Virus record (IMG/VR): IMGVR_UViG_2850808358_000008
Coordinates: 1 to 37,329 of that record
From: a virus
Taxonomy: Duplodnaviria; Heunggongvirae; Uroviricota; Caudoviricetes
DNA length: 37,329 nt
Strand: one strand, 5' to 3'
The position numbers and the translations under genes are program-made. Positions within the stretch are counted from its first letter, which is position 1; every line of letters begins with the position of its first letter. The notes beneath the pieces are model-generated. The model was not told the origin of the DNA. It did not search any database and saw nothing but the letters and a program-made list of their open reading frames with translations. This document shows, piece after piece, positions 1,102 through 33,022 of this stretch.

Positions 1102-1421
1102 TCAGCGGGGTAATTTTTGTTTTGTTTCGGTTGAACTCTGATCGCCCTCCAAACTGGAGAAGCCATCAAGAGAGAGAGCCGGAGAAATTTGCCCAACCTC
1201 CGGCATCGTTTCATCTGTTGATAACCAATAAGCATACTTCTTAAATTTTGGGTGTTTCGTAACCTTAAGTAAGGCCCCCTCTGTTACTTGCTTCCCCCTC
1301 ACCTCATAGTTAGTTACCGTCCATAAGGCAGCCCAACACAATCCGCAAACTCCTGGCGGGTCATACCTTCTGCTTCACGAATCAGGCGAAATTTTTCACC
1401 CATGCTTGACAAAGATGCCAT
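1102..1421 (-). CDS. C: P2 C-type immunity repressor, interrupted by an apparent 1-bp deletion near 1320-1322
   Basis: The N-terminal HTH part (MASLSSMGEKFRLIREAEGMTRQEFADCVGLPYG) stops at 1316-1314, and the C-terminal part (TVTNYEVRGK...KFKKYAYWLSTDETMPEVGQISPALS) continues in the neighbouring frame to 1102. Both halves resemble P2 C by recollection. Confidence 0.65.
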
Positions 1422-1483
1422 ATCGGGCATATCCTCCATTACAAACATGCCACATCGGGCACTCACACATAAAAAAGCTCAAA

Positions 1484-1510
1484 TAAGCCTATATAAGCCA
1501 TTTTGAGCCA
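1484..1510. promoter_or_regulatory. Three 10-bp-phased direct repeats (TAAGCCT, TAAGCCA, TGAGCCA) in the C/cox divergent control region; candidate operator
   Basis: Repeats start at 1484, 1494 and 1504, between divergent C and cox. P2-type C and Cox proteins are known to bind direct repeats in the Pe/Pc region. Confidence 0.35.
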
Positions 1511-1537
1511 TTCGAACGAATTAAGGAGATTACCACA

Positions 1538-1825
1538 ATGAGCGAATCAGAGCTTGAGGGGTTCATTCAGGTAGCACCATATCCACTTGAAGCGGTGCCA
1601 TATCAACTATTCGCCAAGATGATTGGCCGCAAAGAATCAACCGTCAGAACCATGATTGACGCTGCAAAGCTACCAACGATTGACTTTGTAAAACCAGGTT
1701 CAGCAAAGACGCGAGCATCAGAAAACTGGGTATATCTGCCAGCATTTAACGCAGGTATGCGCAAAGCGTTTTTTGATCAGCCGAAAGAGCGCCGCGACGC
1801 ATGGTTGCTCTGGCTGGGTCTTTGA
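1538..1825 (+). CDS. cox: Cox-like excisionase / early transcriptional regulator
   Basis: 95-aa ORF divergent from C. Internal motif (WVYLPAFNAG ... AWLLWLGL) resembles P2 Cox by recollection (WVYLPAWNNG ... GWLMWLGL). RBS AAGGAG lies upstream. Confidence 0.8.
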   Translation: MSESELEGFIQVAPYPLEAVPYQLFAKMIGRKESTVRTMIDAAKLPTIDFVKPGSAKTRASENWVYLPAFNAGMRKAFFDQPKERRDAWLLWLGL

Positions 1826-1836
1826 CGAGGATTTTT

Positions 1837-30792: not shown

Positions 30793-30979
30793 GCCAGCTA
30801 ACCACTTCGCCGGGCGTCATCATGAAGATTTCGGCGGGCGACCAGTTAAAAATGGCGGCAATATCTGCCACAAAGTCTTCTATGTGCTCAAAGCACACAA
30901 CCGTGATCAGGCTTCCGTCGCCTGTTCGTTCTTCCCGCCAGAGTCCGCACCGCTCAAAAAATTTACGGCAACCACACAT
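30743..30979 (-). CDS. E' extension of the tail assembly chaperone, reached by -1 programmed frameshift
   Basis: ORF in the -1 frame relative to E, beginning at the T6G slippery run (minus strand, 30955-30961). Confidence 0.65.
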   Translation of the reverse strand: MCGCRKFFERCGLWREERTGDGSLITVVCFEHIEDFVADIAAIFNWSPAEIFMMTPGEVVSWRERAALRSGNADNEDS

Positions 30980-31272
30980 AACTGAATAAAGTCACGGGAT
31001 GCCATTTTTTTGATCGTCACTTCATCCAGTCGCGGTGATGTCACGCGTGACAGCAGCGTAAACATGGATTCCGCTTTCAGATTCAGCACATCAGACAGCG
31101 ACAAATCTCGCAGAGATCCAGCCTGCTCAATAGCCCCGGTGATCTCCACATACGTGATTTTTTCGCCGCTTCGCTCAATTGGTTGGGTAAGTTTTACGCC
31201 ACGCTCACTGGTTTCTTTCACAGTGTCAGTAACTACCGTGTTTTCGGTATCGATGTTTTTCGTCTCTTTCAT
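30907..31272 (-). CDS. E: Tail assembly chaperone, P2 gpE-like
   Basis: 121-aa ORF between FII and T containing the TTTTTTG slippery motif near its 3' end. Confidence 0.7.
   Translation of the reverse strand: MKETKNIDTENTVVTDTVKETSERGVKLTQPIERSGEKITYVEITGAIEQAGSLRDLSLSDVLNLKAESMFTLLSRVTSPRLDEVTIKKMASRDFIQLCVVAVNFLSGADSGGKNEQATEA
30955..30961 (-). other. Programmed -1 ribosomal frameshift slippery site (TTTTTTG) for E/E+E'
   Basis: Heptamer in the E frame; the -1 frame continues as E' for about 70 codons. Confidence 0.6.
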
Positions 31273-31326
31273 CAGGAAACTCCTTTCAGTCAGAGGCGAC
31301 GCACTGCGCCGCCTGCATATTACTTA

Positions 31327-31839
31327 TCAGCCAAGCCCAAGCGCGGAACGGATGCGATCGGGCACAATGTCCTTGCCGTCCTTCCGGTAAATGAAGTTCA
31401 GCAGGTCAATCTCCCACAACGGGCGATCGTTAACACTCAGCTTGTAGTAGGTGTTTTTAATGGCGTAAGTGTGTGATGTGGCTTCGCCCTGTTTGGCTTC
31501 CCCCATATCAATTTCCGTCACACGTCCGCGCATTTCGACTTCATACAGGTCGCTTTCTGCATCGGTGTAGTATTCACCCGCAAAACGCAGCAGCGTGCCG
31601 TCAATCGTGCCGCCATACTTAAGGAACAGCTCACGAACTGCGCCCCCCATGACAAAGCTCGCATCAAGCGCAGAGTCGTCCAGACCGAGATCAATACTTA
31701 CCGCCCCCATCATGCCACCACCCCGGTAGCTGTCGGTTTTGCGCGTCAGCTTAGGCAGAGTGACGGACGTCACCTTACCCACTTCGTTTTCACCATCCAC
31801 AAACAGCGTAAAAAAGCGAAGATGTTTTGGCACAGCCAT
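31327..31839 (-). CDS. FII: Tail tube protein, P2 gpFII-like
   Basis: 170-aa ORF directly downstream of the sheath gene on the minus strand. Confidence 0.85.
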   Translation of the reverse strand: MAVPKHLRFFTLFVDGENEVGKVTSVTLPKLTRKTDSYRGGGMMGAVSIDLGLDDSALDASFVMGGAVRELFLKYGGTIDGTLLRFAGEYYTDAESDLYEVEMRGRVTEIDMGEAKQGEATSHTYAIKNTYYKLSVNDRPLWEIDLLNFIYRKDGKDIVPDRIRSALGLG

Positions 31840-33022
31840 CAGGCACCTCCCAGCACCGCAAATGCGGGTTCAAAGTATTCATCAGTAAACGTCTGGTAAA
31901 GCTCCATGTCTTCCAGTGGCGGAACGGGCGTATATTTGTAGCGAATACGCACACGCCCCTGACGTAAATCCGTTGTGCTGTTATCCACCACGTCATACCA
32001 GCACTCCGCGCCAATCAGTTTCCCGGCAGTCACCAGTGAATCCAGTTTTGCCCTGATGGCACTGATAACATCCTTCACGTTCGCAGGCGTCAGTGGACTG
32101 TCGATGGTTTCAAACTGCGCTTCCGCAATTGAATCAGCCAGCACCTGTGCGGTTCGGGTATACACCTCAAAGATGTAGGCGTTCGTTTCCGGTGTGCGGT
32201 TGCCCCAGAAGCGGAACCCGTTGCGACGAATAATGGTCGTGATTTCTTTGTTGTTGAGGCTGTTGGCATCACTGTCTTCGGCCTGCAACGACCAGAACAC
32301 ATGCCTGGACATCCCCAGCACATTTTTAACCGGAACGTTGGACAGCGATTTGTGCCAGCCCTGTTCATGGTCAATGTACGCACGAAGGCCGCACGCATAG
32401 GCAGGCGCGGGGAACGTTTCGTTTTTGCCACTTTTCGGGTTGTAGGCGATGAAGTCCGGCCATAAGAGCATCACCTCACGTTCGTTGAATTTCTGGCGGT
32501 AGGTAATCGCCTCAGCCATCGTGTTACAGCCGTGACATGAGGCATACACAAACGCGCGAAGTTTACCCGCAATCACGCACAGGGATTTTGTCACCGCCTC
32601 CGTGTCCAGCTCCGGCGCGGCCAGAATACGCGGACGGTATCCGATGCTTTCATCCTGCTCTGCAACAAGCAGCGCATACATCCCGTATAGCTGCCGTCAG
32701 ATTCAGAACCACCGATAACCAGTTGATCCTGCGTTTTTCCGTCTTCTTCTTTGTGTTCAGCCACGCGAACGACGATCACCTTTGTGCTCACCTGGTCTGC
32801 GATGGCCTTAAGCGCACGATAAAGCGTCCCCGTTGTTCCGCATTTTCCCAGCACGTCATTGACGCGGGTCAGCAGTGTGGGCTTGTTCAGCGGGAACAGC
32901 TCCGCGTCCGCATCATCCGCCGTTGCCACGATACCGATAACACTGGAATCAACATCATTAATCGCTGTTACCAGGTCGGTACTTTCCGTAACACGGGCAC
33001 CATGAAAACGAGTTTCACTCAT
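31839..33022 (-). CDS. FI: Tail sheath protein, P2 gpFI-like, split by an apparent 1-bp deletion in a GGG run at 32682-32684
   Basis: N-terminal ORF (32591-33022) and C-terminal ORF (31839-32681) together reproduce P2 FI as recalled (ADDADAELFPLNKP ... QGWHK.LSNV ... FRFWGNRT ... YTPVPPLE), joining at SYTG / MYALLVAEQ. Confidence 0.85.

What the first reader, a model, noticed from the sequence alone, without database searches (positions are those of the whole stretch)
1320..32684. Recurrent single-base deletions in short G-runs interrupt five unrelated genes, suggesting systematic homopolymer error
C repressor (about 1320-1322), A (6168-6170), tape measure T (about 28988-28990), sheath FI (32682-32684) and the IS600 orfB transposase (10674-10676) each need one extra G in a GG/GGG run to restore a conserved full-length protein. 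Five independent identical lesions, including one in an insertion sequence, fit homopolymer undercalling far better than independent pseudogenisation. If real, the prophage would be defective for immunity, replication and tail assembly.
Basis: seen in the sequence. Interest (0 to 1): 0.65.

Follow-up and report, generated by a model that had tools for sequence, protein, structure and literature searches.

The report
Homopolymer assembly errors, not real pseudogenes
The frameshifts that appear to break the repressor, replication and tail genes of this Shigella boydii P2-like prophage are single G or C bases dropped by the genome assembly at short G/C runs, so this is a sequencing artefact and not biology.

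Summary
All five reported lesions exist. Six more of the same kind are in the window: a second one in gene A, one in tail gene D, and four in non-coding DNA. Two more lie in the host genes accD and pdxB just to the left. All are losses of one base from a G or C run that is 3-5 nt long in relatives (ten of the eleven in-window runs are 4-5 nt). None is an insertion and none is in an A/T run.

The window is part of GenBank CP026877.1 (assembly GCA_002950035.1). Three contigs of an independent draft S. boydii assembly (GCA_003572525.1) cover 26,441 bp of the same locus, including the same IS600 junctions. They differ from CP026877.1 by 0 substitutions and 6 gaps, and every gap is one of these run contractions. 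The repaired tape-measure protein (935 aa) is identical to a protein annotated in S. boydii whose accessions fall in the series used by that draft. The three truncated products looked up occur only in CP026877.1.

The profile matches the published systematic error of PacBio-only assemblies. Apart from a genuine IS600 insertion in an accessory ORF, nothing here shows the prophage to be defective. Interest is low, except as a quality flag on this record.

The parts
1321..1322 (-). Contracted run in the immunity repressor gene C (gene 1102-1421, minus strand). CC here, CCC in relatives. The frame breaks after codon 34.
   Evidence: It is one of only 3 differences in 11,603 bp against sister contig QWSJ01000045.1. 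The relatives aligned there have the longer run. The repaired 106-aa protein exists verbatim on 99 contigs.
6168..6170 (+). Contracted run in replication gene A (gene 5106-7926). GGG here, GGGG in the closest relatives.
   Evidence: 10/10 relatives carry one more base, and the five closest have GGGG in an identical context. The 358-aa N-terminal fragment occurs only in CP026877.1. No sister DNA was obtained for this site.
7660..7663 (+). Second contracted run in gene A. GGGG here, GGGGG in relatives.
   Evidence: It is the only difference in 2,451 bp against sister contig QWSJ01000383.1. 10/10 relatives have the longer run.
9508..10770 (+). IS600 copy, 1,263 bp (one base short of the two reference copies it was aligned to). 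It has a 3-bp target duplication ATC (9505-9507 and 10771-10773) and splits a 174-aa accessory ORF. The insertion is real.
   Evidence: Junctions and the uninterrupted target in L018 are shown. The sister contigs run about 53 bp into each end of the IS from the same flanks.
10674..10676 (+). Contracted run in IS600 orfB. GGG here, GGGG in other IS600 copies. orfB then reads through the IS end to 10812.
   Evidence: Aligned to two plasmid IS600 copies at 99.3-99.4% identity, with one gap. Repair gives a 272-aa OrfB ending at the normal stop.
11756..11759 (+). Contracted run in non-coding DNA upstream of the portal gene. GGGG here, GGGGG in the sister assembly.
   Evidence: It is one of only 2 differences in 12,387 bp against sister contig QWSJ01000099.1. 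10/10 relatives carry one more base here: nine read GGGGG and one GGAGG.
11856..11858 (+). Contracted run in non-coding DNA. GGG here, GGGG in the sister assembly.
   Evidence: It is the second of the 2 differences in 12,387 bp against QWSJ01000099.1. 10/10 relatives have the longer run.
28981..28983 (-). Contracted run in tape-measure gene T (gene 27950-30756, minus strand). CCC here, CCCC in relatives.
   Evidence: 12/12 plus 10/10 relatives have the longer run. The repaired 935-aa protein is identical to S. boydii RIF84919.1 / WP_119181282.1. The truncated 599-aa product occurs only in CP026877.1.
32682..32684 (-). Contracted run in tail sheath gene FI (gene 31839-33022, minus strand). CCC here, CCCC in relatives.
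   Evidence: 12/12 plus 10/10 relatives have the longer run. The repaired 394-aa protein exists verbatim on at least 1,000 contigs, while the 143-aa truncated product occurs only in CP026877.1.
33090..33092 (+). Contracted run in the FI-D intergenic region. CCC here, CCCC in relatives.
   Evidence: 12/12 plus 10/10 relatives have the longer run.
33133..33136 (+). Contracted run in the FI-D intergenic region. CCCC here, CCCCC in most relatives.
   Evidence: 11/12 relatives carry one more base; the twelfth has a still longer C run. All 10 further relatives agree.
33219..33221 (+). Contracted run at codon 15 of tail gene D (gene 33178-34286). CCC here, CCCC in relatives.
   Evidence: The three reading frames and the repair to a 369-aa D are shown. 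12/12 plus 10/10 relatives have the longer run. The repaired D exists verbatim on 72 contigs.

Best explanation
These are consensus-calling errors in the deposited assembly, not features of the organism. The window is part of CP026877.1, the 5.13-Mb single-contig chromosome of assembly GCA_002950035.1, apparently Shigella boydii. When the consensus was called, runs of G or C (4-5 nt in ten cases, 3 nt in one) were undercalled by one base at about one site per 3-6 kb, in coding and non-coding DNA and in host and prophage DNA alike. Each loss inside a gene produces an apparent frameshift. The real prophage most likely has intact C, A, T, FI and D genes, and its IS600 has an intact orfB.

Shown here: the extra base is present in an independent assembly of the same lineage and in every relative examined; the lesions are exclusively -1, exclusively in G/C runs, and not confined to genes.

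Inferred: the cause is long-read (PacBio-type) homopolymer undercalling. The platform and coverage of the record could not be read with these tools.
For: 1. Source. The window is identical to CP026877.1.

2. Independent assembly. Three contigs of GCA_003572525.1 (S. boydii draft) align to CP026877.1 as follows:
- 11,603 bp, 0 mismatches, 3 gaps
- 12,387 bp, 0 mismatches, 2 gaps
- 2,451 bp, 0 mismatches, 1 gap
All six gaps are one base missing from a G/C run in CP026877.1: accD, pdxB, phage C, phage A, and two non-coding sites. The sister contigs share both IS600 junctions, so this is the same prophage copy.

3. Exact-sequence look-ups. The repaired T (935 aa) equals RIF84919.1, a protein annotated in S. 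boydii. The repaired C, FI, D and PdxB also exist verbatim elsewhere. The truncated A, FI and T products occur on one contig only, CP026877.1.

4. Relatives. Every one of the 10-22 related prophages covering a site carries one more base there. Against the six prophages about 98% identical over 8.9 kb there are 171-173 substitutions, and the five C-run deletions are the only indels in five of the six.

5. Spectrum. 10/154 G/C runs of 4 nt or more are hit against 0/372 A/T runs of 4 nt or more (p = 3.7e-6). There are no +1 events. Neither of the two 6-nt G/C runs nor any of the 58 A/T runs of 6 nt or more is hit.

6. Contrast with real lesions. A 1-nt deletion in an MFS gene right of the window and a TT->T difference at 2482 are not in G/C runs, and both are reproduced in independent read-based contigs.

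7. Literature. PMC8574707 reports that PacBio-only assemblies carry systematic single-base deletions of G or C in homopolymers, 4-6 nt long in two of the genomes it analysed, even at 361x coverage, truncating essential genes. PMC12007338 describes the same class of gene-fragmenting error.
Against: - No read-level data were available, and the platform, coverage and polishing of CP026877.1 are unknown to me.
- It is not proven that the sister assembly is the same strain. If it is only a close clone, the differences could in principle be real.
- Six of the eleven in-window sites (6168, 10674, 32682, 33090, 33133, 33219) rest on relatives, not on sister DNA. The T site rests on protein identity.
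- The errors are clustered. Four lie within 537 bp (simulated P = 0.0015), while long stretches have none (12-28.9 kb of the window; 7.5 kb to the right).
- 25 kb of plasmid CP026876.1 has 98 G/C runs of 4 nt or more and none contracted. Whether that plasmid belongs to the same assembly is unverified. So the error rate is not uniform.
Confidence: 0.93

Rival explanations
1. The frameshifts are genuine independent pseudogenisation, as expected for a decaying prophage in a Shigella genome undergoing reductive evolution.
For: Shigella genomes do carry many real pseudogenes and IS insertions. This prophage has a real IS600 insertion. A real frameshift in an MFS transporter gene lies just right of the window.
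Against: - The same lesions hit accD and pdxB and four non-coding runs.
- There are 0 substitutions against 6 indels in 26.4 kb versus the sister assembly. That ratio is the reverse of what I would expect from ordinary sequence divergence, where substitutions outnumber indels (general knowledge, not tested here).
- All events are -1 in G/C runs, with none in the many longer A/T runs.
- The truncated products looked up occur in no other assembly among about 15 billion proteins.
- The real lesions nearby are reproduced in independent data and do not share the signature.
Confidence: 0.03
2. The differences are real but recent. The particular stock that was sequenced acquired a mutator state, such as a mismatch-repair or polymerase defect, that contracts G/C runs.
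For: Homopolymer runs are the main sites of indels in repair-deficient enterobacteria (general knowledge). The clustering of four events in 537 bp is not explained by a simple uniform error model either.
Against: By general knowledge, mismatch-repair deficiency produces abundant transitions, both +1 and -1 changes, and a steep rise in rate with run length. Here there are 0 substitutions in 26.4 kb and only -1 events. Runs of 4-5 nt are hit, while none of the 58 A/T runs of 6 nt or more and neither of the two 6-nt G/C runs is. A frameshift near the 3' end of the essential gene accD and one in pdxB would have to be tolerated. At this rate about a thousand frameshifts genome-wide would hardly be viable (my extrapolation).
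Confidence: 0.03
3. The short G runs are functional slippery or phase-variable sites, and the frames are restored by transcriptional or ribosomal slippage.
For: Nothing specific to these sites. By general knowledge, IS3-family elements and the P2 tail-chaperone genes E/E' use programmed frameshifting, but at other, A/T-rich motifs.
Against: The remaining runs are only 2-4 nt long, far below the tract lengths that I recall for phase variation (about 7 nt or more). All relatives encode the proteins in one frame. Four of the sites are non-coding. The independent assembly has the in-frame version.
Confidence: 0.005

Closest known systems
Systematic G/C homopolymer deletion errors of PacBio-only (continuous long read) assemblies, as described in the ARAMIS paper (PMC8574707)
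   Same: Single-base deletions of G or C in short homopolymer tracts. They persist in the consensus, truncate conserved and even essential genes, and disappear when compared with short-read data.
   Different: The platform of CP026877.1 was not verified here. One hit is in a 3-nt run. The errors are locally clustered, and a plasmid with an adjacent accession looks much cleaner.
Gene-fragmenting indel errors in long-read assemblies in general (Kastor paper, PMC12007338)
   Same: Homopolymer-associated deletions that turn genes into apparent pseudogenes and can be detected by comparison with close references.
   Different: In the nanopore assemblies analysed there, A/T runs were hit most often. 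Here A/T runs are untouched.
Genuine Shigella pseudogenes and IS-mediated gene disruption
   Same: The same genome does contain these: IS600 at 9508-10770 with its target duplication, and a frameshifted MFS transporter gene right of the window.
   Different: The genuine lesions are reproduced in independent assemblies and are not G/C-run contractions. The eleven lesions of the finding are absent from the independent assembly wherever it could be checked.
P2-like temperate phages of the Peduoviridae (P88 / Xuanwuvirus-like), the element that carries the lesions
   Same: Gene order int-C-cox...A...Q-P-O-N-M-L...H-G...FI-FII-E-T-U-D-ogr. The window is 94-98% identical to E. coli and Citrobacter prophages.
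   Different: It carries a ParM/StbB-like pair, a GT9-like cargo gene and an IS600. None of this bears on the finding.

Membership tests
Assembly artefact: long-read homopolymer undercalling | The discrepant bases are absent from an independent sequencing or assembly of the same genome. | tested here: met
   GCA_003572525.1 contigs against CP026877.1: 26,441 bp, 0 substitutions, 6 gaps, all with the longer run in the independent assembly. Identity of strain is not proven.
Assembly artefact: long-read homopolymer undercalling | The errors are indels at homopolymers with a consistent direction and base preference (G/C deletions). | tested here: met
   11 of 11 in-window lesions and 2 of 2 flank lesions are -1 in G/C runs. 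10/154 G/C runs of 4 nt or more are hit against 0/372 A/T runs (p = 3.7e-6).
Assembly artefact: long-read homopolymer undercalling | The errors ignore function: coding and non-coding DNA, mobile and core genes. | tested here: met
   Four non-coding sites, the host genes accD and pdxB, an IS, and five phage genes are all affected.
Assembly artefact: long-read homopolymer undercalling | The record was produced from long reads without effective short-read polishing, and read pile-ups are ambiguous at the sites. | not testable with these tools
A single 5.13-Mb contig for an IS-rich Shigella chromosome suggests long reads, but that is only an inference.
Assembly artefact: long-read homopolymer undercalling | The same signature is found across the whole assembly. 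| tested here: inconclusive
   It is present in the 7 kb of host flank on the left. It is absent from the 7.5 kb on the right and from 25 kb of plasmid CP026876.1, whose membership of this assembly is unverified.
Genuine pseudogenes (reductive evolution or prophage decay) | The lesion is reproducible in independent assemblies of the lineage. | tested here: not met
   The longer run is found in the sister assembly at all six sites covered. The truncated products looked up are unique to CP026877.1.
Genuine pseudogenes (reductive evolution or prophage decay) | A mixed mutational spectrum: substitutions, nonsense changes, indels of both signs, IS insertions. | tested here: not met
   0 substitutions against 6 identical-type deletions in 26.4 kb.
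Phase-variable homopolymer tracts or programmed slippage sites | A long tract (about 7 nt or more, from my own knowledge) or a conserved slippery motif, with the out-of-frame arrangement conserved in relatives. | tested here: not met
   The runs are 2-4 nt in the window and 3-5 nt in relatives, and all relatives are in frame.

The most novel reading that the evidence does not exclude
The contractions are real. The stock sequenced for CP026877.1 would then carry a process that removes one base from 4-5-nt G/C runs at about one site per 4 kb, without causing substitutions. That would be a G-run-specific deletion mutator with local clustering, tolerated even in accD and pdxB.
Probability: 0.03. 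Interest if true: 0.5.

Novelty: not a real feature. Interest (0 to 1): 0.08.

Why it matters
The value is practical, not biological.

Extrapolating one error per 3.4-5.7 kb to the 5.13-Mb record gives roughly 900-1,500 spurious single-base deletions. Most would fall in genes. This is my extrapolation from about 70 kb examined, and the rate is uneven.

Any count of pseudogenes, assessment of prophage integrity, or inference of auxotrophy or virulence-gene loss drawn from CP026877.1 would be badly inflated. Shigella is the very organism in which pseudogene counts are used to argue for reductive evolution.

For this locus, the correct reading is a P2-like prophage between pdxB and flk whose immunity, replication and tail genes are most likely intact. 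It is interrupted only by IS600 in an accessory ORF.

Tried and rejected
1. I first repaired gene A at 6171 with a T, following two distant references. The five closest relatives show that the missing base is a G in a G4 run. Neither repaired A protein is in the collection. No sister contig covering window 4535-7110, which includes the first A lesion, was recovered.

Look-ups with FII, the GT9-like protein and flk returned only common E. coli contexts. Look-ups with the tail-fibre H and the 174-aa methyltransferase fragment returned nothing useful. So no sister DNA was obtained for 24,995-34,694, and the T, FI and D sites and the two intergenic sites rest on relatives plus the protein identity of T.

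3. As an assembly-wide test, 25 kb of plasmid CP026876.1 was compared with two RefSeq pINV plasmids. Differences private to CP026876.1 were one G3->G2, one T5->T6, one A8->A7 and a 19-nt insertion. None of its 98 G/C runs of 4 nt or more was contracted. The test is inconclusive, because I could not verify that this plasmid belongs to the same assembly. The strain name ATCC 35964 is known only for the plasmid record.

4. Literature searches for CP026877, ATCC 35964, GCA_002950035, GCA_003572525 and QWSJ01 found nothing.

5. None of the eleven lesion contexts printed contains a CCWGG (Dcm) motif, so a methylation-motif artefact is not indicated.

6. I considered a strand pattern. The lesions are G runs on the + strand at 6-12 kb and C runs at 29-33 kb. 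This largely follows gene orientation and the local abundance of such runs, so I did not pursue it.
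Full report
WHAT THE WINDOW IS
The window is a P2-like (Peduoviridae, P88/Xuanwuvirus-like) prophage. It is 94-98% identical to prophages of E. coli and to Citrobacter phage Shae_phiSM. It runs from the integrase (1-1005, minus strand) to ogr (34329-34589) and ends in the host gene flk. An exact look-up of the truncated A product located the source as GenBank CP026877.1, the 5,129,092-bp chromosome of assembly GCA_002950035.1. The fetched record is identical to the window over the 16,182-nt overlap checked. 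The closest proteins are annotated Shigella boydii. In prophage-free E. coli, pdxB and flk are adjacent, so the prophage sits between them.

CHECKING THE OBSERVATION
I aligned the window to 20 related loci at first, and later to more, and listed every gap. All five reported lesions are there:
- C repressor: CC at 1321-1322, CCC in the relatives aligned there.
- Gene A: GGG at 6168-6170, GGGG in the five closest relatives.
- IS600 orfB: GGG at 10674-10676, GGGG in two plasmid IS600 copies.
- Sheath FI: CCC at 32682-32684.

Inserting one base restores full-length C (106 aa), A (940 aa), T (935 aa), FI (394 aa) and OrfB (272 aa).

Gene A has a second break (7660-7663, G5->G4). Tail gene D is broken at codon 15 (33219-33221, C4->C3), which is masked by an upstream ATG that keeps a 412-aa ORF open. 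Four non-coding runs are also one base short of every relative: 11756-11759, 11856-11858, 33090-33092 and 33133-33136.

This gives eleven window-private single-base deletions. All are in G or C runs that are 3-5 nt long in relatives. No window-private insertion in such a run was seen.

In the repaired window, 10 of 154 G/C runs of 4 nt or more are contracted, against 0 of 372 A/T runs of 4 nt or more (Fisher p = 3.7e-6).

REAL OR ARTEFACT
The decisive evidence is an independent draft assembly of the same lineage, GCA_003572525.1 (contigs QWSJ01...). I reached it through window proteins that occur in only two or three assemblies.

| Sister contig | Window coordinates covered | Aligned bp | Substitutions | Gaps | Where the gaps are |
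|---|---|---|---|---|---|
| QWSJ01000045.1 | -7065 to 4535 | 11,603 | 0 | 3 | accD 3' end (G5->G4), pdxB (C4->C3), phage gene C (C3->C2) |
| QWSJ01000099.1 | 10717 to 23101 | 12,387 | 0 | 2 | the two non-coding G runs at 11.76 and 11.86 kb |
| QWSJ01000383.1 | 7111 to 9560 | 2,451 | 0 | 1 | the second lesion in gene A |

In total this is 26,441 bp with no substitution and six gaps. Every gap is one base missing from a G/C run in CP026877.1. The last two contigs end about 53 bp inside the two ends of IS600, joined to the same flanks. They therefore describe the same prophage copy with the same IS600 insertion.

Further support comes from exact-sequence look-ups:
- The repaired T protein is identical over 935 aa to S. 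boydii RIF84919.1. Its RIF and WP accessions fall in the same series as the sister-assembly proteins found.
- The repaired C, FI, D and PdxB also exist verbatim elsewhere.
- The truncated A, FI and T products occur on a single contig in a collection of about 15 billion proteins, and that contig is CP026877.1.

Among the six E. coli prophages that are about 98% identical over 8.9 kb of the tail region, there are 171-173 substitutions. In five of the six, the five C-run deletions are the only indels.

CONTRAST WITH GENUINE LESIONS
Some differences from E. coli relatives are real, and they look different. A TT->T difference at 2482 is identical in the sister assembly and in a contig assembled from run DRR015988. 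A 1-nt deletion that splits an MFS transporter gene about 940 bp right of the window is not in a homopolymer. The 7,514-bp contig assembled from run SRR6049580 carries it too, and that contig is 100% identical to CP026877.1. The IS600 insertion (9508-10770) has a 3-bp target duplication, ATC, and is shared with the sister assembly.

MECHANISM
The spectrum is only -1, only G/C, with ten of the eleven in-window hits in runs of 4-5 nt. It is indifferent to coding status and to whether the DNA is host, phage or IS. That is what the ARAMIS study reports for PacBio-only assemblies: systematic single-base deletions of G or C in homopolymers (4-6 nt long in two of its genomes), not removed by very high coverage, and truncating essential genes (PMC8574707). 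PMC12007338 describes the general class of gene-fragmenting homopolymer errors in long-read assemblies. I could not read the record's header, so the platform is inferred. A single-contig chromosome for an IS-rich Shigella genome implies long reads.

RIVALS
- Genuine pseudogenisation. This is contradicted by the sister assembly, by the ratio of 0 substitutions to 6 indels, by the hits in accD, pdxB and non-coding DNA, and by the uniform spectrum.
- A G-run-specific mutator in the sequenced stock. This cannot be excluded without reads. However, repair-deficient lines give transitions, changes of both signs and a steep dependence on run length (general knowledge). Here there are no substitutions, and none of the 58 A/T runs of 6 nt or more nor either of the two 6-nt G/C runs is hit.
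- Programmed slippage or phase variation. This is excluded by the short runs and by the in-frame sequence in all relatives.

CAVEATS AND LOOSE ENDS
- Six of the eleven in-window sites (6168, 10674, 32682, 33090, 33133, 33219) are supported by 2-22 relatives but not by sister DNA. The T site rests on protein identity.
- The errors are clustered. Four lie within 537 bp (simulated P = 0.0015). There are none between 11.9 and 28.9 kb or in the 7.5 kb right of 34,695.
- 25 kb of plasmid CP026876.1 (S. boydii ATCC 35964) has an adjacent accession, but I could not show that it belongs to the same assembly. It shows no contraction in its 98 G/C runs of 4 nt or more. The error rate is therefore uneven, perhaps following local coverage. 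I could not test this.

VERDICT
The feature is an assembly artefact and carries no biological novelty. Its only importance is as a warning. Extrapolated from the stretches examined, CP026877.1 may contain on the order of a thousand spurious frameshifts. The prophage should not be scored as defective on this evidence.

Noticed in passing
window 9508-10770 (flanks 9505-9507 and 10771-10773): A genuine IS600 insertion with a 3-bp target duplication (ATC). It splits a 174-aa ORF that is intact in related prophages (L018-L026). Both junctions are also present at the ends of contigs of the independent assembly. This IS copy also carries a cluster of four substitutions at 10596-10608 relative to plasmid IS600 copies.
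   Followed up: yes
L037 positions 2084 and 6687 (window coordinates -4984 and -381, outside the window): The host genes accD (3' end) and pdxB carry the same kind of G/C-run contraction in CP026877.1. Both are intact in the sister assembly and in E. coli.
   Followed up: yes
L046 12299-13191 (window coordinate about 38265, outside the window): An MFS transporter gene is split by a 1-nt deletion that is not in a homopolymer. The same sequence is present in the contig assembled from run SRR6049580, so this is a real pseudogene of the lineage.
   Followed up: partly
window 4177-4374 and 4431-4661: Rfam hits to isrK (4177-4251) and C4 antisense RNA (4287-4374) lie directly upstream of a 76-aa 'derepression protein' gene. 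This looks like a P1/P7-type c4-antisense immunity module inside a P2-like early region.
   Followed up: no
window 25823-26021: An Rfam IS009 hit (218 bits) lies inside the tail-fibre assembly gene (25480-26079).
   Followed up: no
window 8003-9278: A ParM-like actin ATPase (319 aa) and a 103-aa partition/stability protein are encoded just after replication gene A. This is a plasmid-type segregation pair in an integrated P2-like prophage, and it is shared with P88-like relatives.
   Followed up: no
window 26174-27352: A 392-aa cargo gene with a weak glycosyltransferase family 9 match sits between the tail-fibre assembly gene and gpU. The identical protein is widespread in E. coli P2-like prophages (listed in 1,944 blocks of the collection).
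   Followed up: partly
window 23371-25458: The exact 695-aa tail-fibre H protein occurs only in CP026877.1. The sister contig extends into H to about 24,994, but only sequence up to 23,101 was fetched. It is therefore unknown whether H hides a further error or is simply split between contigs elsewhere.
   Followed up: partly
window 35580-36104: A truncated N6/N4 DNA methyltransferase ORF (174 aa) lies in a roughly 1.1-kb stretch between the prophage end and flk. This stretch is absent from the E. coli loci first compared. It is identical in two independent contigs assembled from sequencing runs.
   Followed up: partly
window 32682-33221: Four of the eleven run contractions fall within 537 bp (simulated P = 0.0015), while 17 kb of the window has none. 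The errors are locally clustered for a reason I could not determine.
   Followed up: partly
window 2482: A TT->T difference from E. coli relatives in an intergenic spacer is identical in the sister assembly and in a DRR015988 contig. It is real lineage variation and not part of the artefact.
   Followed up: yes
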